Of a stretch of DNA of 64,000 bases, positions 10,361 to 18,145 are shown piece after piece. A program made the position numbers and the translations under genes. This DNA comes from a virus, in IMG/VR virus record IMGVR_UViG_3300045391_003842, positions 51,789 through 115,788 of that record, one strand, 5' to 3'. The notes under the pieces were generated by a model. The model was not told where the DNA came from. It worked only from the letters and a program-made list of their open reading frames with translations, and did not search any database. The stretch's first letter is position 1. Each line of letters opens with the position of its first letter.

Positions 10361-10450
10361 ACGTTCTCTTGCGTCCGGCGGATCTGCCTGTACAGTCCGG
10401 CCGGGTTTTGCATTCCGCAATTCCTTTATCCAAAAATGGAGACACACCTG

Positions 10451-13400
10451 ATGAGATCAGTGGTGACGGTCTATCCGATCGGCTCCCAAGTCTCTGGCGT
10501 GCCTTTTGTCGTTTCGGGAACGATCAACTACTATCCGACGATCGATGTCTCAGACGATGGCGTGAATTTCGATGATGCCAATGTGGGAGGATCGGCGCTG
10601 TCCACCTCCACGTGGCATTTCACGCACCAAGGCATGCCGGTCGGCAACTACACCTTCCGCTTTGAGTCCGGCGACGGATCATCCGGCGTCGTGACGTCCA
10701 ACCCGTTCGCTGTCGTCAATCCGCACACCATCACGCCAAACGCGCCAACCGGCGCCGTGGAAGGCGCGCCGTTCATCTTCACCGGCTCGCTGGGCAACTA
10801 CGCGCAACCGCCCAACCTCACCGCGGCAATCGACAGCGGCACGCCGTTCGCGCTGTCTGGTGTCAGTGCCAGCGGGTGGAACACCACGCTGACTATCGAG
10901 ACATCCGGCACCCACACGCTGACTGTCAGCGATGGCACCTTGTCTACGACCACCGCGGCCTTCAGCGTCGCCGCATCGGGCGTGGCGCCTCCGCCGCCGG
11001 TATCCGGCGTGGTGTGGGATGCAACGCACAAGTCCAGCACCATCGTCCTGTCCAACGGCAGCGGCACGGCGACGTCCAGCGGCACCGGAGCCCAGTCGGT
11101 TCTGGCCACCGTGCCGGTCCCGGCGTCCGGCTTCGCCGCCTGGGAGGTCATCGCGAGCGCGGTCACCACGGATTGGGCGGCTGGCGTGGCCGATCGCAGC
11201 TACGCGCTGGATTTCGGGGGCGGCCTTGGCGGCGATCAGCACGGCGCCGGCTACTACATAAACAGCCCTCCGGAGGAAACCTGGTACAACGGCACGTTGG
11301 TCAACGGCTCCAGCGGGACCGATTCGACCGGCGCGGCCATCTCGTTCGTCGCGTCCGGCCTGCAACTCTGGGTATCGACGCCGGAAATGCGGGCGAACGG
11401 CTTTAACTTCAACAATTCGACCACTGCGGACCCGGCAACTGGCGTCGGCGGCATCAACGTCTCCGGAATCGGCCTGCCGTTCTATCCGGCGTTCAACGTG
11501 CTGGAGACTGGCGCGTCGGCGACGATCAACGGCGGGGCAAGCGGGGCGTTCTCGGCCTTCCTGACCACCTACATGGCGGCGCACACCGCGATCAAGGCGC
11601 TGGACGGCACGATTGTGTCCGGCGGCGGATCGTCTGGCGTGCCGGCGGTTCACACCATAACGCCGGTTTCGCCGGGCACCGTGACGGCCGGGCAGGCGTT
11701 CACCTTCCACGGCACGATCAGCGGCTATGGCGGCACGGCACCGACGCTGCTGTACGAGGTGGACAACGGTTCGCCGGCCCTGGTGTCAGGTGTCACGGCG
11801 TCCGGGTGGTCCATGACGCTGAACCTGAGCGTCCTGGGATCTCACACCCTGCTGGTGACAGACGGTGCGGTGTCGGGTTCCACCACGGTGGTGGTCCAGG
11901 CAGCCTCCGGAACCGGCGGCGGCGGAGCCAATGGCATCCCGCGCGTGACGGCGCCGTTGACGGGCACGGTCACCAAAGGCACGTGGCTGCAAAATCAGCG
12001 GCTGAACGTCGCGGCGATGCCTCATGGGTTCATCGCCTACGATCTGTTGCTGCCGGCGCAGTACGATCCGAGCCTCGTCTATCCGATCATGGTCTACGGC
12101 CATGAGAATGACGAAGGCATGAACGGGGGCTCGTATCCGTCCTCCAATCTGGCGACGGAAAATGGGGCGGTCGGGCCGGGTCTGAGCGCGGACTCGTGTT
12201 TCAACACCGTTGCATTCAGAACGGCGTTCCCCTGCATCGTGGTCGTGCCGTACTGTGACCAATCTCTCGACACCTCCGGTGCCAATCCGAATGCTAACTT
12301 TGGCGGCTACGCGGATACACCGGATAGTGGCGGCAACGAACAGGGCGTGCTGGCGCTGGTGCGGTTCCTGCAATCGACGTACAGTGTGGATGCAACGCGT
12401 ATCTACATCACAGGCGACTCGTTGGGCGCGATCGGGGCCTTGGCCCAGATGGTGGACAACAACGCCTATGGTACCGGTACTGTCAACCACGTGTTCGCCG
12501 CCGGCATGGGTTTTTCCGATCAGCTTTACCGGCCGACCATTTCCGGTGGATCGAACAGCCCCGTCATCCAGGCGATGAAGAACGTCCCGTACTTGGCGAT
12601 CGGCACACCCGACGACAACAACGAGGCGATCTACGATCAAGCGGCGTGGCAGGCGTACACGGGCGGCGCTTCCTACCCGACCGCGGCCAACTACACGTCA
12701 GGTGGCGTGGCGGCGCTGAACGCACCCGGCACCCAGTTCTACTATCTGCATGACGCAAACGATGTGCCGTGGAATGACGGCTATCGCCAGTTGGATGCGG
12801 ACGGCGGCAAGGGTACCGCGCTTTATACGTGGCTGTTCGACCAGATCGTCAGCGGTGTGTCGGTCGGCACAGTGCCGGCACCGGCCGCCTCGGCTGGGTA
12901 CCACACGATCACCTACGGTCCGACCATCGTGCTGGGTAAAACGGCTGATCCGGTGACCAGTTTCCCTGAGTTCTCGGGTTCGGTGAACTGGGTGCCGTTC
13001 ACCTTCTATGGCACATCGTGGGCTTCGATCGGTGCGGTGCAGAACGCGGACGGCTCTGTCACGTTGGATGGAACCGGCCAGACGTTCGGCAACGGGCTCG
13101 CCACGGCCGCGGCAGGCGACGCCAACCTGACGTCGGATCGTCTGTCCTTCACCGGCACGGCCTTTGGCGGCGGCTTCTACGTTGAAGCTGTCATGAAGGG
13201 TGACGGGCCGATGTCGTTCTGGGCGAACGATATCGAAACCATGAATGGCGTCTCGGTGAATGCCGGGCCGAATGCATGGGCCGGTCAGGTGTCAGGCTAC
13301 GGCGATTGGATCGAAGCGGACATCGCGGAGTTCGACACGACCGGATCGTACGGCATCGCGCTCCACAACTGGTACGGAGCGGTCGGGTCCAACAACGATG

Positions 13401-15295
13401 TCAACACCGGCTTTGCCAAGGTGGCGCCCTCGCCGACGCCTGATTACACGCAGTACCACACCTACGGTGCTCTGTGGGTGCCGGCGACGGTATCGGGGCA
13501 TGGTTCCTTCAAGTTCTATTTTGATGGAACGGAAGTTGCGGAGGTAACCTGGGATCAGTTCAATGCTGCGCTGACTCCGCCGCCGACCGCTCAAGCCTCT
13601 GTCACGTCGGGAGTGCCGCAGACGGCTGGCGGCCTGACCGCGTTTGGCGTCATGGACAACCTGCATCTCGCCCTCATCATGGGCGCGGGCAGCGGGAGCA
13701 CCGTGACGTTCAAGAGCGTAACGGTCTGGCAGCGGGACGCCTCGAAAAACCTCGCTCCGTCCGGCACGATCATCCCGCCGCCGTCTGGCGAATCGAGAGA
13801 TGGCACGATCGTCAATGGTACGACCGGCCAGCTTATCGACAGCCAGAACAACGTCTGGGCGATCAACGCTGGTGGCGTGATCACGGTCAATGGCACGCCG
13901 GACAACACTACGGGCAACGTGCTGCGTCTCGTCTATTCCAACCACACGATCTGGCAGCAGAACGCGGATCTCATGTGGTGGAACAAGACAAGCGCGGGCG
14001 CGTCGTGGACGCCGGCCACCGGCACGTCAACATCGCCGTTGTCCAACGCGGCGCCGTCATCGAACAAGGCCACGATCACGGCGCCGACTGCCACCGTGCT
14101 GACGGATGTCTCGGGCAACGCCTACGGCATCAACAGCGGGCAGGTGATGGTCAACGGCACGGCAGACTCCAGCACGTCCAACGTGGTGGAACTGGCGTAT
14201 GTCGCGGGCGTCATGTGGCAGGAAACCGCGTCCGGCGTCTGGTATGGCAAGTCCAGCCCGACCGCGGCATGGTCCCCATCCGGCGGTACCACGACGTCGC
14301 CTTTGGCGTCGGGCAGCGGCGGTGGCGGAACGCCAACCGGCCAGTTCCATATCAGCGGCGGCAAGATCATCGATCCGAACGGAAAGGTGTTCATCGCGGC
14401 CGGTGTCAATATCTATGACACGGATCTGGCGGGCGCGATCACGGGACCGGACTGCAATCCCCTGCTGTCCACGTTCCCAGGCTGCAACTTCGTGCGGGTG
14501 CCGGTCTACGCGTACCAAGATCCCTCTTTCTTCGCGCAGCAGATTGCCTGGGCGACGGCGAAAGGGATCGTGATCGAACTCGAAGACCACACCAACACCA
14601 GCGGTGGCAACGCTGGCGGCAATGACCAGGGCGGTGTCATCTTCTCTGGCTCCAGGCTAACCCAGGAACTGAACTGGTATGCGAGTTGCGCGGCCTATTA
14701 TGCGAACAACCCGTATGTCTGGTTTGGTACCGACAACGAACCGGCGACGAAAACCAACGCGAGCGGATCTTCGGACCCGAACGCGTTGTCCTCGTGGCAG
14801 CAGCAGACCTACAATGCTGTGCGCAACGCGGGCTCCGATGCGATCGTGATGATTGAGGCGGTGGGCTGGGATACGCCCCAGTCGTACGGCCAATACATCA
14901 CACCTTCCTATTTCACCGGCATGACGAACGCGATTATCGACATGCATGTGTATGGAGAGGCCTATAGCGGCACGACGGCGAGCAACATCGCCAGCGTGAT
15001 CAACGAGAACATCGCGTACATCCAGGGGAACCAAACCTCTGCGGATGGCGTGATGCCAGTGCTGATCGGAGAGTTCGGCAACGCCACGGACGGGCAACAC
15101 TTCGACTCGAACGGCGCGGCGACGGTGACGGCTGTCACCCAGGTGGCCGGTGCCAACTCCGCGGGTTTCGCGGCGTGGAACTGGCAGCCCGGCAACGGCG
15201 ACATTGACGCTCTGCGGAACGGCAATGGCAGCCTGACGGACTACGGTCAGCAGATTGCGACGGGCATCGCGGCAGCGGCAGCCAATCGCAGCTAA
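10451..15295 (+). CDS. multidomain carbohydrate-active protein: Ig-like/SPRY-like, alpha/beta-hydrolase, GH16-like and GH5 domains
   Basis: GDSLG nucleophile elbow; WIEADIAEF (ExDxxE); C-terminal FGTDNEP...DMHVY...LIGEFG...AWNW GH5 motifs; GGAG RBS before ATG 10451. Confidence 0.8.
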   Translation: MRSVVTVYPIGSQVSGVPFVVSGTINYYPTIDVSDDGVNFDDANVGGSALSTSTWHFTHQGMPVGNYTFRFESGDGSSGVVTSNPFAVVNPHTITPNAPTGAVEGAPFIFTGSLGNYAQPPNLTAAIDSGTPFALSGVSASGWNTTLTIETSGTHTLTVSDGTLSTTTAAFSVAASGVAPPPPVSGVVWDATHKSSTIVLSNGSGTATSSGTGAQSVLATVPVPASGFAAWEVIASAVTTDWAAGVADRSYALDFGGGLGGDQHGAGYYINSPPEETWYNGTLVNGSSGTDSTGAAISFVASGLQLWVSTPEMRANGFNFNNSTTADPATGVGGINVSGIGLPFYPAFNVLETGASATINGGASGAFSAFLTTYMAAHTAIKALDGTIVSGGGSSGVPAVHTITPVSPGTVTAGQAFTFHGTISGYGGTAPTLLYEVDNGSPALVSGVTASGWSMTLNLSVLGSHTLLVTDGAVSGSTTVVVQAASGTGGGGANGIPRVTAPLTGTVTKGTWLQNQRLNVAAMPHGFIAYDLLLPAQYDPSLVYPIMVYGHENDEGMNGGSYPSSNLATENGAVGPGLSADSCFNTVAFRTAFPCIVVVPYCDQSLDTSGANPNANFGGYADTPDSGGNEQGVLALVRFLQSTYSVDATRIYITGDSLGAIGALAQMVDNNAYGTGTVNHVFAAGMGFSDQLYRPTISGGSNSPVIQAMKNVPYLAIGTPDDNNEAIYDQAAWQAYTGGASYPTAANYTSGGVAALNAPGTQFYYLHDANDVPWNDGYRQLDADGGKGTALYTWLFDQIVSGVSVGTVPAPAASAGYHTITYGPTIVLGKTADPVTSFPEFSGSVNWVPFTFYGTSWASIGAVQNADGSVTLDGTGQTFGNGLATAAAGDANLTSDRLSFTGTAFGGGFYVEAVMKGDGPMSFWANDIETMNGVSVNAGPNAWAGQVSGYGDWIEADIAEFDTTGSYGIALHNWYGAVGSNNDVNTGFAKVAPSPTPDYTQYHTYGALWVPATVSGHGSFKFYFDGTEVAEVTWDQFNAALTPPPTAQASVTSGVPQTAGGLTAFGVMDNLHLALIMGAGSGSTVTFKSVTVWQRDASKNLAPSGTIIPPPSGESRDGTIVNGTTGQLIDSQNNVWAINAGGVITVNGTPDNTTGNVLRLVYSNHTIWQQNADLMWWNKTSAGASWTPATGTSTSPLSNAAPSSNKATITAPTATVLTDVSGNAYGINSGQVMVNGTADSSTSNVVELAYVAGVMWQETASGVWYGKSSPTAAWSPSGGTTTSPLASGSGGGGTPTGQFHISGGKIIDPNGKVFIAAGVNIYDTDLAGAITGPDCNPLLSTFPGCNFVRVPVYAYQDPSFFAQQIAWATAKGIVIELEDHTNTSGGNAGGNDQGGVIFSGSRLTQELNWYASCAAYYANNPYVWFGTDNEPATKTNASGSSDPNALSSWQQQTYNAVRNAGSDAIVMIEAVGWDTPQSYGQYITPSYFTGMTNAIIDMHVYGEAYSGTTASNIASVINENIAYIQGNQTSADGVMPVLIGEFGNATDGQHFDSNGAATVTAVTQVAGANSAGFAAWNWQPGNGDIDALRNGNGSLTDYGQQIATGIAAAAANRS

Positions 15296-15326
15296 GGCAG
15301 AGCGGGAAACCGCTGGCTAAGGCAGG

Positions 15327-15357
15327 GCGCCAGGGTCTTCGGACTCTGGCGCTTTTT
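15327..15357 (+). terminator. Rho-independent terminator
   Basis: GCGCCAGGGTC-TTCG-GACTCTGGCGC followed by TTTTT. Confidence 0.85.
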
Positions 15358-15386
15358 CTTTCACCCGTAGGTGACAATTTTTAGAC

Positions 15387-15416
15387 TTGCACGACCGCGC
15401 AAAATGCGCGATATCT
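15387..15416 (+). promoter_or_regulatory. putative sigma70 promoter of the Y RNA-rsr unit
   Basis: TTGCAC...GCGATATC (alphaproteobacterial-type -10); predicted start near 15421-22 coincides with the 5' end of unit 1. Confidence 0.55.
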
Positions 15417-15421
15417 CCGCC

Positions 15422-15488
15422 TGTCGATAGCGTGAGCCCACGGATACTTCTGGCATGTTGTAAGCCCGTGAGCGATTAAACTTCGACA
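15422..15488 (+). ncRNA. Y RNA-like module 1 (short)
   Basis: terminal stem TGTCGA/TCGACA, TAGCGT motif, inner CACGG/CCGTG stem, ATACTTC motif. Confidence 0.7.
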
Positions 15489-15496
15489 ACAGTTTT

Positions 15497-15588
15497 CGCT
15501 GGATAGCGTAGAACTCGGTTGCATCGGTCTGATAAACCGTTACGGGCTTGCGCCCGTGGCACTGCCGGGATCGCCTAACCTTCCGGCG
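15497..15588 (+). ncRNA. Y RNA-like module 2 (two-hairpin cargo)
   Basis: CGCTGGA/TCCGGCG stem, TAGCGTAG, CGG-TTGCATC, hairpins CGGT-CTGATAA-ACCG and ACGGGC-TTGC-GCCCGT. Confidence 0.7.
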
Positions 15589-15597
15589 TTTGAATAT

Positions 15598-15734
15598 GTG
15601 GGTAGCGTATGTAGCGGTTACTTCTCAAAAACTTTGGGTCGGTGGTTCGAATCCACTTCTGTCATCTTCGGGTGGCGGGTAGCTCAGGGGTAGAGCAAAA
15701 GTCAAACAAGGTCCGTTGCAGTCTGATCTCCCAC
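15598..15734 (+). ncRNA. YrlA-like Y RNA with permuted tRNA domain (module 3)
   Basis: GTGGG/CCCAC stem, TAGCGTA, CGGTTACTTC; T arm GGTGG-TTCGAAT-CCACT precedes a loop-closed acceptor stem and the D arm GCTC-AGGGGTA-GAGC. Confidence 0.88.
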
Positions 15735-15769
15735 TTTTAGTTTGCGTATGGAGGTAGAACACGAAATAC

Positions 15770-15835
15770 ACTGGATAGCGTTAGATTGCGGTTACTTCTT
15801 TGGTGAACCACACCGTAGTCGATTGATCTTCCGGT
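15770..15835 (+). ncRNA. Y RNA-like module 4 (short)
   Basis: ACTGGA/TCCGGT stem, TAGCGTTA, GATTGCGG/CCGTAGTC, TTACTTC, TGATCT. Confidence 0.75.
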
Positions 15836-15842
15836 AGTAAAC

Positions 15843-15981
15843 GATGGATAGCGTAGAGAACGGTTACTTCGCATCTGGAGCGCGAGGTCGTTGGTTCGAG
15901 TCCAACTCCGTCCACCTTTCACGGGCGGGTAGCTCAGTCGGTAGAGCGCGTACTGTTACTGTTGTCGCCTGATCTTCCATC
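15843..15981 (+). ncRNA. YrlA-like Y RNA with permuted tRNA domain (module 5)
   Basis: GATGGA/TCCATC stem, TAGCGTAG, CGGTTACTTC; T arm GTTGG-TTCGAGT-CCAAC, acceptor TCCGTCC/GGGCGGG, D arm GCTC-AGTCGGTA-GAGC. Confidence 0.88.
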
Positions 15982-16017
15982 ACTCGCTACCGGCTCACTT
16001 TCAACAGGAGCCAAGCC

Positions 16018-17394
16018 ATGCGCCTAAACCGAGCCGTCAAGCAGCCGCCGATCGTTACCCATGAGGGTGGTAAGGCCTCTCGTATCAATCTGGTGCAGCA
16101 ACTGCGCCGGTCTGTCCTCTCCTGCATGCTGTGGGAGAAGGAATTTTACGAGGATGGCGACACGATCTCTGCGCGGATCCGCAGCCTCATTCCTATGATT
16201 TCGCCGGCTGTCGTGTCGGCCCTGGCGATCGAGGCGCGCACCAAGTTTCATCTGCGTCATATCCCGCTGTTTCTGACCGCGGCGCTGGCGCAGACGGCTG
16301 CCGGCACGTCGATTGTGTCGGAGACGCTGAACGGTGTCATCCAGCGCGCCGACGAGTTGTCGGAATTTCTGACGATCTACGCGCAGATGAACGGCGTCGC
16401 GCCTGACAAGATCAAGCCGAAGCTGTCCAATCAGGTGCGCAAGGGCCTCGCGGCGGCCTTCGGCCGATTCGATGAATACCAGTTGGCCAAGTACAACCGC
16501 GACGCTGTGATCAAGTTGCGTGATGTGCTGTTTTTGTGCCACGCCAAGCCGAAGGATATTGCTCAGGCAGCGCTGTGGGAGCGGCTGATCAACGGCAAGA
16601 TCGCGGTGCCGGACACCTGGGAAGTCGCTTTGTCCGGGGGCGCCGACAAGAAGACCACCTGGGAGCGCCTGCTTGGCGCCAACCAGCTTGGTTACCTCGC
16701 TCTGTTGCGGAACCTCCGCAACATGCAGGAAGTCGGCGTGGACCCGAACCTGATTCGTGAGGCGATCTTGGCGCGTCGGGGCGGTGCTGATCGGGTGTTG
16801 CCGTTCCGGTTCACCGCGGCGGCTCGAGTCGTGCCGGCGTATGAGCCCGAATTGGATAAGGCCATGATGGCGAACATCATGGCGCTGCCGAGTCTGCCGG
16901 GCCGGACGGCGGTGCTGGTGGACGTCAGCGCCAGCATGGACGAGCGTCTGTCGGCGAAGTCGGATCTGTCTCGGTTGGATGCGGCGGCGACGCTCGCTTC
17001 CATGATAAACGCACAGGATCGTCGGGTGTTCTCGTTCTCGACACAGGTTGTGGAGGTGGCGCCGCGCCTGGGTATGGCCGGCGTGGATGCGATCCGGACC
17101 AGCCAAATTCACCATGGCACGCATCTGTTTGATGCGGTGGATCTGATCAATCGGACGGTACCGCATGACCGGCTCATCATCATCACCGATGAGCAGGCGA
17201 CCGGGGCGGTGGGTTTTGGCTACCGCCTGGGCGGGACGCTCCGGAGCATGCCGGCGCCGGCTTGTGATCATGGCTACGTGATCAACGTGGCGAGTGCGCT
17301 GAACGGCGTTGGATATGGTCCCTGGACTCATATCGACGGCTTTTCAGAGCAGGTGTTGCGCTGGATCGCGGAATACGAGGCCGCGGAGGTCTGA
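16018..17394 (+). CDS. rsr: Ro60/TROVE domain RNA-binding protein with vWA domain
   Basis: THEGG, LWEKEFYEDG, RADEL, FDEYQLAKY, LRDVLFLCH.KP, TWE..LS, ALLRNLRN, LPFRF, MIDAS DVSASM, IITDEQ; AGGAG RBS. Confidence 0.95.
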   Translation: MRLNRAVKQPPIVTHEGGKASRINLVQQLRRSVLSCMLWEKEFYEDGDTISARIRSLIPMISPAVVSALAIEARTKFHLRHIPLFLTAALAQTAAGTSIVSETLNGVIQRADELSEFLTIYAQMNGVAPDKIKPKLSNQVRKGLAAAFGRFDEYQLAKYNRDAVIKLRDVLFLCHAKPKDIAQAALWERLINGKIAVPDTWEVALSGGADKKTTWERLLGANQLGYLALLRNLRNMQEVGVDPNLIREAILARRGGADRVLPFRFTAAARVVPAYEPELDKAMMANIMALPSLPGRTAVLVDVSASMDERLSAKSDLSRLDAAATLASMINAQDRRVFSFSTQVVEVAPRLGMAGVDAIRTSQIHHGTHLFDAVDLINRTVPHDRLIIITDEQATGAVGFGYRLGGTLRSMPAPACDHGYVINVASALNGVGYGPWTHIDGFSEQVLRWIAEYEAAEV

Positions 17395-17403
17395 GATCCG
17401 GTC

Positions 17404-17589
17404 ATGTCACCATCTGACCTGATCACCGCTGGCGAGAGGTTATTTGGCGTGCACTGGCGCCAACCTCTCGCCGACTGGTTGGGGGTGAACATATCGACGG
17501 TGCGGCGATGGGCATCGGCCGAGGTAGCGATACCCCGGTCTGTGGCCATCGCCATCACCCTACGGTTGAAACACGAAGGATCGCCTTGA
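17404..17589 (+). CDS. small HTH DNA-binding protein
   Basis: LFG..W...LADWLGVNISTVRRWA.....IP. Confidence 0.8.
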   Translation: MSPSDLITAGERLFGVHWRQPLADWLGVNISTVRRWASAEVAIPRSVAIAITLRLKHEGSP

Positions 17590-17618
17590 CGCTGCTGGTT
17601 GCGGTGCTGATCATGGCG

Positions 17619-17804
17619 GGTGGTTGGGGCGCAAGTTCACAAAGCCGGTGGCGTTGGAGGGTTCATGGCACCCGCGGCTTCGAGGGCTTACCTCCGTACT
17701 GCGACCGGGACCAAAGTGGTAGTCAAGCCCGGAAGCGACACCGGATATAACCGGGCGGGAAAGCCGGGCGCTTCGTAAAATGGAGCCGGCAAAGGTAGGT
17801 CACC
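17619..17804 (+). ncRNA. candidate structured ncRNA (~190 nt)
   Basis: ORF-free; TTGACGC upstream; GGTGGTT/GGTCACC closing stem, GGGC-GCAA-GTTC, GGAGG/CCTCC, ACCA/TGGT, GCCCGG/CCGGGC; followed by a terminator. Confidence 0.55.
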
Positions 17805-17810
17805 ACGCTA

Positions 17811-17848
17811 GAGAGGGTGCGATGCACTAACCTGCATTGCACCCTTTC
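17811..17848 (+). terminator. hairpin terminator
   Basis: GAGAGGGTGCGATGCA-CTAACC-TGCATTGCACCCTTTC. Confidence 0.7.
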
Positions 17849-17853
17849 ATTCT

Positions 17854-17883
17854 ATTAAGTGGCATGTTATAGTGACACTTAAT
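17854..17883. promoter_or_regulatory. operator-like inverted repeat (copy 4) over a -10 box
   Basis: ATTAAGTGGCA-N8-TGACACTTAAT containing TATAGT. Confidence 0.6.
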
Positions 17884-17893
17884 GGAGGGTTGA

Positions 17894-18145
17894 ATGTCCA
17901 GTCTCTTACGCCCGCAATTCGTTGTTCCAATTCCGTTTTTCATCTGGCTTGGTATCGCCACGGCCTATAGCTATGCGGTGGTGGCCGGGCTTCTGGTGTT
18001 CGGGATATACTGGCTGTTCAAGCGCTATTTGATCTGGGCGCTGGATGTGCCGAACAAGGCCTGGGAGAAGCACGGGAAAGGCTACTACACGGCGCCCGGT
18101 AACATCCTTGTTTACGATCCGAGTGACCCACGCGCCGGCCGTTGA
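17894..18145 (+). CDS. small membrane protein
   Basis: GGAGG RBS; hydrophobic N-terminal half. Confidence 0.7.
   Translation: MSSLLRPQFVVPIPFFIWLGIATAYSYAVVAGLLVFGIYWLFKRYLIWALDVPNKAWEKHGKGYYTAPGNILVYDPSDPRAGR

What the first reader, a model, noticed from the sequence alone, without database searches (positions are those of the whole stretch)
15387..17589. Phage Ro60 (Rsr) operon led by a tandem array of five modular Y RNAs
Seen: between a terminator (15327-57) and the TROVE gene lie five units (15422-488, 15497-588, 15598-734, 15770-835, 15843-981). They share one scaffold: outer stem - TAGCGT(A) - inner stem ending CGG - (T/A)T(A/G)C(T/A)TC - variable cargo - C(C/T)G.. stem - T(G/A)A(T/A/C)CT - outer stem. 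The stems differ in sequence between units yet stay complementary (TGTCGA/TCGACA, CGCTGGA/TCCGGCG, GTGGG/CCCAC, ACTGGA/TCCGGT, GATGGA/TCCATC), so covariation is visible within one genome. A promoter sits just before unit 1 and an HTH gene follows rsr. Established: Ro60/Rsr binds Y RNA stems, bacterial loci usually carry one or two Y RNAs (YrlA/YrlB), and some phages encode them. Inference: this is a polycistronic cassette of interchangeable RNA adaptors (constant Ro-binding handle plus variable cargo), a multi-guide-like RNP. No RtcB ligase gene, a frequent bacterial partner, is visible in this window.
Basis: partly seen in the sequence, partly recalled or inferred. Interest (0 to 1): 0.93.

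Follow-up and report, generated by a model that had tools for sequence, protein, structure and literature searches.

The report
Phage Ro60 gene with five Y RNAs
An uncultured soil phage carries a gene for the RNA-binding ring protein Ro60 preceded by five small RNA genes that share one conserved docking stem but carry different inserts (two are tRNA look-alikes); this layout is the rule in a large group of phage and bacterial Ro60 loci, and no paper I could search describes it.

Summary
Five tandem units lie at 15422-15981, on the strand of a genuine Ro60/Rsr gene (16018-17394) and directly upstream of it. All five share one scaffold: an outer stem, then U-A-G-C-G-U-A-G, an inner stem ending CGG, UUACUUC, a variable insert, UGAUCU and the outer stem again.

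- **The RNAs.** U3 and U5 carry YrlA-type permuted tRNA domains but score only 30-32 bits on Rfam YrlA, against a cut-off of 69. U1, U2 and U4 have no full tRNA domain.
- **Conservation.** Two covariance models built here find the same handle only beside rsr and always on its strand. They hit 22 related viral loci, 12 bacterial or MAG loci and 56 further viral loci, with 1-8 units per locus.
- **Covariation.** Over 77 units, 94% of cells are paired, against 67% when shuffled, and all 16 pairs show compensatory changes.
- **How unusual five is.** Five units is the upper tail of this family, not unique. CcrColossus has 8, a Brevundimonas phage 6 and a Xanthomonas phage 5.

My reading is a co-transcribed set of Y RNA adaptors for the phage Ro60. 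Binding, processing and partner proteins remain inferred. Phage Ro60 with Y RNAs is published (Chen 2014; phiLo 2025), but I found no paper on arrays of this size, the minimal 65-nt members or the intact anticodon-arm mimics. This scan has noted similar arrays on many other genomes.

The parts
15324..15355 (+). Intrinsic terminator of the upstream 1619-aa gene. It separates the array from upstream transcription.
   Evidence: 14-bp stem with 8 G-C pairs, a 4-nt loop and a T run.
15387..15415 (+). Candidate sigma-70-type promoter: TTGCAC, 17 nt, GATATC. Its -10 element ends 6 nt before unit 1.
   Evidence: Read from the sequence. Not called by the consensus scan. A TTGAC box lies at a similar distance before the first unit in CcrColossus, Gurke and Sopo. 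Inference only.
15422..15488 (+). Unit 1: a minimal Y RNA of 67 nt, made of the handle plus a loop of about 14 nt.
   Evidence: R1 62.7 bits, E 1e-15. Fold. A variant from a related strain, 15486 A>G, keeps the outer stem as a U-G pair.
15497..15588 (+). Unit 2: a medium Y RNA of 92 nt. It has the handle, a 4-bp/7-nt hairpin (CGGU-CUGAUAA-ACCG) shaped like an anticodon arm, and a G+C-rich hairpin. It has no T or D arm.
   Evidence: R1 35.2 bits, R2 35.4 bits. The minimum-energy fold shows both hairpins, z -2.4.
15598..15734 (+). Unit 3: a YrlA-type Y RNA of 137 nt. It has the handle, a T arm, a closed acceptor-like hairpin capped by UUCG, and a D arm. It is a tRNA opened at the anticodon loop.
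   Evidence: R2 97.5 bits. Rfam YrlA 30.2 bits over model positions 1-114, below the cut-off of 69. Consensus structure.
15770..15835 (+). Unit 4: a minimal Y RNA of 66 nt, made of the handle plus a loop of about 14 nt with a 3-bp UUC/GAA mini-hairpin.
   Evidence: R1 65.4 bits, E 2e-16. Fold z -2.5. Fully covered by an identical contig from an RNA library.
15843..15981 (+). Unit 5: a YrlA-type Y RNA of 139 nt that also keeps a closed anticodon-arm-like hairpin (UUCGC-AUCUGGA-GCGCG), an AGGUC variable loop, a T arm, a closed acceptor-like hairpin and a D arm.
   Evidence: R2 107.7 bits. Rfam YrlA 31.9 bits. Its 5' half scores 27 bits on Rfam tRNA, cut-off 29. blastn aligns it to a unit of Caulobacter phages CcrColossus and CcrPW. 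Hairpin.
16006..16010 (+). Ribosome-binding site AGGAG, 7 nt before the rsr ATG.
   Evidence: Read from the sequence.
16018..17394 (+). rsr: the phage Ro60 ortholog, 458 aa. It has a TROVE HEAT-repeat ring and a vWA domain with the metal-binding (MIDAS) motif D302-x-S304-x-S306.
   Evidence: Pfam TROVE 69 bits, cut-off 23. PHROG 850 E 5e-46. Thermus phage phiLo Ro60 (9KOP) E 2e-17. AlphaFold model pLDDT 82.5. The top 12 listed PDB matches are all Ro60 structures, TM 0.62-0.70. D302, S304 and S306 are invariant in 17 homologs.
17404..17589 (+). 61-aa ORF after rsr, possibly a small helix-turn-helix protein.
   Evidence: PHROG 3626, unknown function, E 1e-10. Pfam HTH_23 E 0.023, below cut-off. 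A homolog follows rsr on the same strand in 4 of 34 loci compared.
17811..17848 (+). First terminator-like site downstream of the array, and the likely 3' end of the transcription unit.
   Evidence: 16-bp stem followed by a T-rich tail. There is no other + strand terminator-like site between 15375 and 17811.

Best explanation
This is a phage Ro60 (Rsr) ribonucleoprotein locus. One transcription unit of about 2.4 kb most likely begins just before unit 1 and ends at the terminator at 17811-17848. It encodes five Y RNAs, then Rsr, then a 61-aa protein.

Each Y RNA is closed by pairing of its own 5' and 3' ends. The closing helix is an outer stem, a bulged U and an R-G/C-Y step. Next to it lies a conserved 5'-strand motif, U-A-G-C-G-U-A-G. 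This is the local form of the GNCGAA-type motif that Chen et al. 2014 consider likely to be involved in Rsr recognition. An inner stem ending CGG and a UUAC (YUAY) turn follow.

I infer that this constant handle docks on the Rsr ring. The precursor would then be cut in the short A/U-rich spacers (7-35 nt) and trimmed back to the protected stems.

The variable inserts are the effector modules:
- Two are full tRNA-shaped domains (U3, U5), able to engage proteins that read the tRNA elbow.
- U5 and U2 also display a closed hairpin shaped like an anticodon arm.
- U1 and U4 offer only a short loop. Such loops are A-rich across the family's short units. By analogy they could be the kind of single-stranded element that tethers PNPase in Deinococcus, Salmonella and phage phiLo particles.

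The phage would thus make several Ro60 particles with different partners during infection.

Shown here: the anatomy, the conservation, the covariation, the strict linkage to rsr and the Ro60 fold. Inferred: Rsr binding, processing, partner identity and biological role.
For: - **The protein is Ro60.** TROVE scores 69 bits. It matches phiLo Ro60 at E 2e-17. The model matches phage, Deinococcus, frog and human Ro60 at TM 0.62-0.70. The DxSxS metal-binding motif is invariant.
- **The RNAs resemble YrlA.** Sub-threshold YrlA matches fall on exactly U3 and U5, E 2e-4 and 6e-5 for the 751-nt region.
- **The handle model is specific.** R1 hits only 15422-15912 in the 64-kb window (U5 only at E 0.9; R2 finds it at 107.7 bits). 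At E <= 0.001 it reports three units and nothing else in the 115.8-kb genome.
- **Every related locus has units.** All 22 viral and all 12 bacterial or MAG rsr loci found by protein carry 2-8 units. Every hit but a few weak partial ones at L023 is on the rsr strand and within about 1.4 kb of the gene.
- **An independent sample agrees.** Of 114 viral stretches found with a 16-base handle pattern, 59 have an rsr homolog within 1 kb, and all 59 are on the same strand.
- **Covariation is strong.**
  - Over 77 units, 93.9% of cells are paired, against 66.9% shuffled and 33-53% with partners slid.
  - All 16 pairs carry compensatory changes.
  - In the long units, 30 of 32 consensus pairs are compensated, including the T, acceptor-like and D arms.
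- **Known YrlA features are present.** These are a GNCGAA-like 5' motif, YUAY, T/AS/D arms, and a position near rsr on its strand (PMC4201824).
- **There is a phage precedent.** phiLo Ro60 binds two upstream Y-like RNAs and forms a complex with host PNPase in vitro (PMC12135203).
- **The transcription-unit layout fits.** No terminator-like site lies between the units and rsr. An RNA-library contig identical over 15700-15856 bridges U3, U4 and U5.
Against: - No unit reaches the Rfam YrlA cut-off. The scores are 30-32 bits against 69, and the same holds in 7 related loci.
- The 5' motif departs from GNCGAAN0-1G by one base.
- Nothing here shows binding, discrete mature RNAs or any partner protein.
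- The expression evidence is a single assembled contig from a metagenomic RNA library, which could come from contaminating DNA.
- The promoter was not called by the scan.
- The recovered 76% of the genome has no RtcB, no Rnl-type RNA ligase and no CCA-adding enzyme. There is therefore no genomic hint of the effector.
Confidence: 0.78

Rival explanations
1. tRNA-decoy or tRNA-sensor library. The point of the array is to display tRNA shapes and anticodon-arm mimics with different 'anticodons' on a Ro60 platform. These would soak up or report host tRNA-directed defences such as anticodon nucleases, or present mimics to tRNA repair or modification enzymes. This extends the best explanation rather than excluding it.
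For: - A 5-bp stem with a 7-nt loop, anchored on the conserved UUC, is perfect in 19 of 107 units. For loop lengths 4-6 and 8-10 the count is 0-4.
- All 19 loops have U at the position of U33 and a purine at the position of R37. The middle triplets vary: GUU, GCU, CUG, UGU, GAU, ACG, GUC, UCU, GAC and others.
- In the long units this hairpin is followed by an AGGUC-type variable loop and a T arm, as in a real tRNA.
- Window U5 (AUCUGGA) and U2 (CUGAUAA) fit the pattern.
- Annotators and Rfam read the 5' halves as tRNA-Gln or tRNA-Ser.
- The published YrlA structure paper states that YrlA lacks the anticodon loop (10.1101/312249), so this feature is additional.
- The phage has no tRNA genes of its own.
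Against: - Only 2 of the 5 window units show a convincing hairpin. U3 is open at the loop, U1 has none, and U4 has only 3 bp with a 6-nt loop.
- The signature could be a relic of origin from a tRNA dimer (the model cited in 10.1101/312249) rather than a selected function.
- Related sequences inflate the 19 of 19 count, although 14 of the loops are distinct.
- No nuclease, ligase or defence or anti-defence gene is linked in this genome.
Confidence: 0.15
2. Cis-acting leader. The repeated structures are Rsr-binding sites in the rsr mRNA leader that autoregulate translation or stability. They would not be separate stable RNAs.
For: - In the window all five units lie between the promoter-like site and the rsr start.
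- No terminator lies between them.
- The last unit ends 36 nt before the ATG.
Against: - In several loci the units lie downstream of rsr: L020 entirely, L014 and L019 partly, and also L039, L063, L076 and L117.
- The units carry complete tRNA-like domains, which a leader would not need.
- Established Y RNAs are likewise encoded beside rsr on its strand, within 4 kb (PMC4201824).
Confidence: 0.05
3. A degenerate phage tRNA gene cluster that merely lies next to rsr.
For: - T and D arms close to the tRNA consensus are present.
- The 5' half of U5 scores 27 bits on Rfam tRNA.
- Homologous units are annotated tRNA-Gln or tRNA-Ser in GenBank records.
Against: - ARAGORN finds no tRNA in the window or in the genome at default settings.
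- The T arm precedes the D arm, and the acceptor is closed by a loop.
- Three of the five units have no tRNA core.
- Covariation supports the pairing of the unit's two ends and the handle.
- The link to rsr is strict.
Confidence: 0.02

Closest known systems
YrlA/YrlB Y RNAs with Rsr in Salmonella Typhimurium and Mycobacterium smegmatis, and the YrlA-like RNAs of 254 bacteria and 22 phages (Chen et al. 2014, PMC4201824; Rfam RF02553; structure preprint 10.1101/312249)
   Same: - The RNAs are encoded beside rsr on its strand.
- The 5' and 3' ends pair.
- There is a GNCGAA-type motif near the 5' end and a YUAY turn.
- The tRNA-like domain is permuted: T arm, closed acceptor-like hairpin, D arm.
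- More than one Y RNA can occur per locus.
   Different: - The units here score less than half the Rfam cut-off.
- The motif is UAGCGUAG or UGGCGUAG.
- The closing helix with its bulged U and covarying R-G/C-Y step is longer than the part covered by the Rfam model.
- Arrays reach 5-8 units.
- Many units are 65-70 nt with no tRNA domain at all.
- Many long units keep a closed anticodon-arm mimic, whereas YrlA is described as lacking the anticodon loop.
Thermus phage phiLo Ro60 with Yrl1 and Yrl2 (PMC12135203; PDB 9KOP, 9L5Y)
   Same: - It is a phage-encoded Ro60 with Y-like RNAs directly upstream of the gene.
- It is the closest solved structure: E 2e-17 and TM 0.70.
- It forms a complex with host PNPase in vitro, which serves as the model for how the particle may act.
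   Different: - It has two RNAs rather than five.
- They were identified by a CGAA motif.
- No tRNA-like domains are reported in the passages I read.
- Protein identity is only about 23%.
[quoted passage not shown]
   Same: - The Rsr clade and the RNA handle are the same.
- blastn aligns window U5 plus rsr to it.
- The array lies between a TTGAC-type promoter box and the gene.
   Different: - It has eight units rather than five.
- One unit's 5' half is annotated as tRNA-Gln.
- It is a 280-kb jumbo siphovirus, whereas this is a myovirus-like genome of at least 116 kb.
Deinococcus radiodurans Rsr with Yrn1 and PNPase (the RYPER RNA-degradation machine), and the Y RNA sets of vertebrates (two to four distinct Y RNAs in most species)
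   Same: - One Ro60 is served by several Y RNAs that share a Ro-binding stem and differ in the rest.
- The Y RNA acts as a tether between Ro60 and an effector protein.
   Different: - There is no detectable sequence relation in the RNAs.
- Vertebrate Y RNAs are separate genes (from memory, transcribed by RNA polymerase III), not one bacterial-type operon.
- The effector here is unknown.

Membership tests
Ro60 / Rsr protein | TROVE (HEAT-repeat ring) domain above the Pfam cut-off | tested here: met
   PF05731 scores 69 bits against a cut-off of 23. PHROG 850 'RNA-binding protein' E 5e-46.
Ro60 / Rsr protein | C-terminal vWA domain with the DxSxS metal-binding (MIDAS) motif | tested here: met
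   D302, S304 and S306 are invariant in 17 homologs. Pfam VWA_2 scores 24.5 bits, just under its cut-off of 27. vWA structures follow the Ro60 matches in the fold search.
Ro60 / Rsr protein | Overall fold like solved Ro60 rings | tested here: met
   The model has pLDDT 82.5 and pTM 0.77. The top 12 listed PDB matches are all Ro60: phiLo TM 0.70, Deinococcus 0.64, Xenopus 0.65-0.67, human 0.62-0.66.
Ro60 / Rsr protein | Binds Y RNA on its outer surface | not testable with these tools
   Needs gel shifts or a pull-down.
YrlA (Rfam RF02553) | Score at or above the curated gathering threshold of 69 bits | tested here: not met
   No match at gathering. U5 scores 31.9 bits and U3 30.2 bits. No YrlA match in 7 related loci either.
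YrlA (Chen et al. 2014 criteria) | Within 4 kb of rsr and on the same strand | tested here: met
   The units lie 37-596 nt upstream of rsr on the + strand. The same holds in 59 of 59 pattern-found loci that carry rsr.
YrlA (Chen et al. 2014 criteria) | GNCGAAN0-1G motif near the 5' end | tested here: inconclusive
   U2 and U5 read AGCGUAG, which has U where the motif has the first A. U1, U3 and U4 differ further in the last three positions. Relatives read GGCGUAG, GGCGAAG or GGUGAAG. This is the same place and a near match, not an exact one.
YrlA (Chen et al. 2014 criteria) | T arm, closed acceptor-like stem and D arm forming a permuted tRNA-like domain | tested here: met
   Met for U3 and U5 only. 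U1, U2 and U4 lack it.
Y RNA (functional class) | Helix formed by the 5' and 3' ends, with a conserved bulged stem next to a variable loop or domain | tested here: met
   Over 77 units, 93.9% of cells are paired, against 66.9% shuffled and 33-53% slid, and 16 of 16 pairs are compensated. The alignment was fitted to the model, which favours the structure. The unfitted MAFFT alignments give the same helices.
Y RNA (functional class) | Stable small RNA bound by Ro60 in cells | not testable with these tools
   The only hint is one identical 157-nt contig in an RNA library.
tRNA gene | Called by tRNA finders, with an open acceptor end and the D arm before the T arm | tested here: not met
   ARAGORN finds 0 in the window and in the genome. 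Rfam tRNA scores 27 bits, below its cut-off of 29, on the 5' half of U5. The T arm precedes the D arm and the acceptor is looped.

The most novel reading that the evidence does not exclude
Phage and bacterial Ro60 of this clade work with a genome-encoded library of plug-in RNAs. The constant handle docks on the ring. The inserts include complete tRNA mimics whose intact anticodon-arm hairpins carry different 'anticodons'. The particle set would then act as decoys, sensors or repair platforms for tRNA-directed attack, such as anticodon nucleases, during infection. That would give Ro60/Y RNA a defined role in the phage-host conflict. It would also capture living intermediates of the proposed origin of YrlA from a tRNA dimer.
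Probability: 0.15. Interest if true: 0.85.

Novelty: new variant of a known kind. Interest (0 to 1): 0.55.

Why it matters
- **Open question.** Ro60 and Y RNAs are conserved from bacteria to humans and matter in autoimmunity. What the variable parts of Y RNAs recruit is still largely unknown outside the PNPase case.
- **What this clade offers.** It gives a natural series of 1-8 RNAs per locus on one handle. The series runs from bare 65-nt handles to full tRNA mimics with anticodon-arm hairpins, and it occurs in cultivable phages of Caulobacter, Brevundimonas and Xanthomonas. That makes the question 'which module binds what' directly testable.
- **Practical fixes.**
  - Rfam YrlA misses the whole clade at its cut-off.
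  - Genome annotations call the 5' halves of some units tRNA-Gln or tRNA-Ser.
- **This locus alone.** It is one more example of that family, not a singular system.

Tried and rejected
- **Rfam at gathering thresholds.** Nothing in the window, and nothing but two tRNA calls in 7 related loci.
- **ARAGORN.** No tRNA or tmRNA in the window or the genome. At relaxed settings it gives only weak calls inside U3 and U5.
- **First regex scanner for units.** It missed U1 and U2 and many homologs, so I replaced it with covariance models.
- **First automatic anticodon-arm parse, anchored on the T loop.** It mis-registered many units, so I replaced it with a parse anchored on the conserved UUC.
- **Pattern scan of viral contigs.** About half of the 114 stretches have no rsr nearby. 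I estimate that a 16-base pattern with 7 spacings gives chance matches of that order in this collection, and some stretches lie at contig ends. I did not count these as orphan Y RNAs.
- **Sequencing runs.**
  - Only small shares of the sampled words were held, and only assembled contigs were available. No starts, ends or levels of RNAs could be read.
  - Parts without cover mean nothing.
  - The other pieces from the RNA run were tRNA-like sequence from other organisms.
- **Partner genes.** RtcB, Rnl-type RNA ligase and CCA-adding enzyme were not found in the 76%-complete record. This does not show that the phage lacks them.
- **Literature gaps.**
  - Chen 2014's supplementary tables, which list the phage YrlAs, are not held.
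  - The 2020 Annual Review on bacterial Ro60 is not held.
  - I therefore cannot exclude that some long units of CcrColossus were already listed there.
- **Complex prediction.** Not tried, because the tool does not model RNA.


Full report
**What is in the sequence**

Between a strong intrinsic terminator (15324-15355) and a 458-aa ORF (16018-17394) lie five head-to-tail units. They sit at 15422-15488, 15497-15588, 15598-15734, 15770-15835 and 15843-15981. The spacers between them are 8, 9, 35 and 7 nt, and 36 nt separate the last unit from the ATG.

Each unit reads as follows:
- an outer stem;
- U-A-G-C-G-U and, in U2 and U5, A-G;
- an inner stem ending CGG;
- UUACUUC (AUACUUC in U1, UUGCAUC in U2);
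- a variable insert;
- the return strand of the inner stem;
- UGAUCU (UAAACU in U1, UAACCU in U2);
- the return strand of the outer stem.

The five outer stems differ in sequence, and each is fully complementary.

Single-sequence folding energies are only modestly better than shuffles, z -0.3 to -2.5. The case therefore rests on comparison with other loci.

**The protein**

The ORF is a genuine Ro60/Rsr:
- Pfam TROVE scores 69 bits against a cut-off of 23, with a sub-threshold vWA match.
- PHROG 850 matches at E 5e-46.
- The best solved relative is Thermus phage phiLo Ro60, E 2e-17.
- An AlphaFold model built on 17 homologs has pLDDT 82.5.
- The top 12 listed PDB matches are all Ro60 structures, from phage, Deinococcus, frog and human, at TM 0.62-0.70.
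- The DxSxS metal-binding motif (D302, S304, S306) is invariant.

The window belongs to a 115.8-kb IMG/VR virus record estimated 76% complete. It has a major head protein and a tail sheath downstream, so it looks like a myovirus.

**Relation to catalogued RNAs**

Nothing reaches an Rfam gathering score. In a sensitive scan of the 751-nt region, the two best matches are YrlA, on U5 (31.9 bits) and U3 (30.2 bits), against a cut-off of 69. The 5' half of U5 scores 27 bits on the tRNA model, cut-off 29. ARAGORN calls no tRNA in the window or the whole record.

The features Chen et al. 2014 (PMC4201824) list for YrlA can be recognised:
- a GNCGAAN0-1G-type motif near the 5' end, here AGCGUAG and in relatives GGCGUAG, GGCGAAG or GGUGAAG;
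- a YUAY turn, here UUAC;
- in U3 and U5, a T arm, a closed acceptor-like hairpin and a D arm, in that order.

**Conservation**

blastn against phage records matched Caulobacter phages CcrColossus and CcrPW from U5 through rsr. It also matched the rsr of Brevundimonas jumbo phages and of 43-kb Xanthomonas and Xylella phages. Reading their upstream regions showed the same repeated scaffold.

I built two covariance models:
- R1, from nine short units.
- R2, from 21 long units.

| Sample | Loci | Units per locus |
|---|---|---|
| Window plus viral loci found by Rsr protein | 23 | 2 to 8 |
| Bacterial and MAG loci found by Rsr protein | 12 | 2 to 6 |
| Viral loci found by handle pattern, with rsr | 56 | 1 to 7 |

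- Every match is on the rsr strand and adjacent to the gene, apart from a few weak partial R2 matches 1.3-3 kb away at L023.
- CcrColossus has 8 units, Brevundimonas phage Gurke 6, and Xanthomonas phage Sopo and this window 5.
- In the window, R1 and R2 hit only 15422-15981. In the whole genome, R1 reports three units at E <= 0.001 and nothing elsewhere.
- Of those 114, 59 have an Rsr homolog within 1 kb, and all 59 are on the same strand. The rest are what I would expect by chance for such a pattern, or lie at contig ends.
- In the 56 pattern-found loci, the counts of loci with 1 to 7 units are 3, 11, 18, 17, 5, 1 and 1.

Five units is therefore the upper tail of a common arrangement.

**Covariation**

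- On 77 units aligned to R1, 93.9% of cells form standard pairs. The figure is 66.9% after shuffling (0 of 500 shuffles reach the observed value) and 33-53% when partners are slid by 1-3 columns.
- All 16 pairs show changes on both sides.
- That alignment is fitted to the model, which flatters it. Plain MAFFT alignments give the same helices: 11 of 17 pairs compensated in A1 and 30 of 32 in A2, including the T, acceptor-like and D arms.
- One step of the closing helix covaries between genomes. A-U (UAG...UCU) occurs here and in a minority of loci, and G-C (UGG...UCC) in most.
- A near-identical soil strain has 15486 A>G, which turns a U-A pair of the U1 outer stem into U-G.

**The inserts**

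Across 107 units from 32 sources (the window and 31 loci), three kinds recur:
- **Minimal units** of about 65-75 nt. Their insert is a 6-20-nt loop that is 37% A and 14% C (U1, U4).
- **Long units** of about 130-140 nt with a permuted tRNA domain (U3, U5).
- **Intermediates** of 80-120 nt with part of a tRNA or other hairpins (U2).

The long units come in two wirings. In U3 the tRNA is opened at the anticodon loop, as described for YrlA. In U5 and many relatives a closed hairpin precedes an AGGUC-type variable loop and the T arm. There the tRNA is in effect opened between the D arm and the anticodon arm.

That hairpin is anchored on the conserved UUC. It is a perfect 5-bp stem with a 7-nt loop in 19 of 107 units, against 0-4 units for any other loop length from 4 to 10. 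All 19 loops (14 of them distinct) have U at the second position and a purine at the sixth, as in anticodon loops, while the middle triplet varies. Window U5 has UUCGC-AUCUGGA-GCGCG with 4 of 5 pairs. U2 has CGGU-CUGAUAA-ACCG.

This explains why GenBank records annotate the 5' halves of homologous units as tRNA-Gln (CcrColossus) and tRNA-Ser (Gurke). It also explains why one such half in phage Sopo just passes the Rfam tRNA cut-off.

It fits the tRNA-dimer origin model cited in preprint 10.1101/312249. That paper also states that YrlA lacks the anticodon loop. Another first-reader note on this genome proposed an anticodon mimic in every unit. I can support that only for U2 and U5.

**Transcription**

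- A TTGCAC, 17 nt, GATATC element ends 6 nt before U1. The scan's rules did not call it.
- No terminator-like site occurs on the + strand between 15375 and 17811.
- AGGAG lies 7 nt before the rsr ATG.
- The simplest reading is one transcript covering the five units, rsr and the 61-aa ORF.
- The only expression hint is a 157-nt contig, identical to 15700-15856, in a root-metagenome RNA-seq run. It bridges the end of U3, all of U4 and the start of U5. Nothing else in 15300-17900 matched that run exactly. DNA carry-over cannot be excluded.
- In several related loci the units lie downstream of rsr. This argues against a purely cis-acting leader.

**Mechanism, with the status of each step**

- Shown: a Ro60-fold protein; a conserved, covarying handle; modular inserts; strict genomic coupling.
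- Established elsewhere:
  - Ro60 binds the conserved stem of Y RNAs, and Y RNAs tether it to effectors such as PNPase (PMC4201824).
  - phiLo Ro60 binds two upstream Y-like RNAs and forms a complex with host PNPase in vitro (PMC12135203).
- Inferred here:
  - the phage Rsr binds all five handles;
  - the precursor is cut in the A/U-rich spacers;
  - the different inserts recruit different partners.

No RtcB, Rnl-type ligase or CCA-adding enzyme was found in the recovered genome, so the effectors are probably host proteins.

**Novelty**

Already known:
- Phage Ro60 with Y RNAs is published. Chen 2014 reports 355 YrlA-like RNAs in 254 bacteria and 22 phages, and the phiLo paper names CcrColossus among them. 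phiLo itself was described in 2025.

Not found in the library I searched:
- arrays of 5-8 units;
- the handle-only 65-nt members;
- the closed anticodon-arm mimic;
- the fact that Rfam YrlA misses this clade at its cut-off.

Chen's supplementary tables and the 2020 review were not available to me.

This scan's notebook holds many similar notes. Six words (Ro60, Rsr, TROVE, YrlA, tandem, array) matched 198 findings in at least 180 genomes, and several follow-ups describe handle-sharing arrays beside Ro60-like genes. Those are unchecked AI notes, not evidence, but they agree that the pattern is general.

I rate this locus a well-supported new variant of a known kind, of moderate interest.

Noticed in passing
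L001:2506-2573 (CcrColossus JX100810) and L003:2221-2295 (Brevundimonas phage Gurke ON529850): Features annotated tRNA-Gln and tRNA-Ser in GenBank are the 5' halves of Y RNA units: handle, anticodon-arm mimic, T arm and one strand of the closed acceptor-like stem. They are probably not tRNA genes.
   Followed up: partly
L002:2136-2206 (Xanthomonas phage Sopo): The 5' half of the last Y RNA unit passes the Rfam tRNA gathering score (29.3 against 29). This shows how close these units remain to a tRNA. It fits an origin from a tRNA dimer.
   Followed up: partly
window 17590-17848: An ORF-poor stretch lies after the 61-aa gene and ends in a strong terminator (17811-17848), with a promoter-like TTGACG, 17 nt, GATCAT at 17586-17614. 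Another first-reader note proposes a structured ncRNA here. My models R1 and R2 do not hit it.
   Followed up: no
window 10436-15295: A 1619-aa ORF directly upstream of the array has a C-terminal GH5 cellulase domain (Pfam E 1e-20). This is an unusually large glycoside-hydrolase protein for a phage.
   Followed up: no
window 15354-15624 versus run X1 (soil metagenome DNA): A near-identical strain differs at 3 positions in 271 nt. One change (15486 A>G) converts a U-A pair of the U1 outer stem to U-G, one (15434 G>A) lies in the loop motif, and one (15589) lies in a spacer.
   Followed up: partly
short units across loci (for example L004:2435-2501, L063:693-761, L076:10111-10177): The loops of many 65-70-nt units begin with 7-mers such as CUGAUAA or CUGUUAA followed by GAAA/AAAC. 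They resemble an anticodon loop closed by only a 3-bp UUC/GAA stem. The loops are 37% A overall.
   Followed up: partly
L014, L019, L020, L039, L063, L076, L117: In these loci some or all units lie downstream of rsr rather than upstream, so the position of the array relative to the gene is not fixed.
   Followed up: partly
L023-L034 (for example a Paracoccus sp. ME4 plasmid, Mesorhizobium sp. Z1-4, Acidicapsa dinghuensis, and a Candidatus Amesbacteria MAG): The same Rsr clade, with 2-6 handle units, occurs in bacterial genomes and MAGs of several phyla. I did not check whether these loci are prophages.
   Followed up: no
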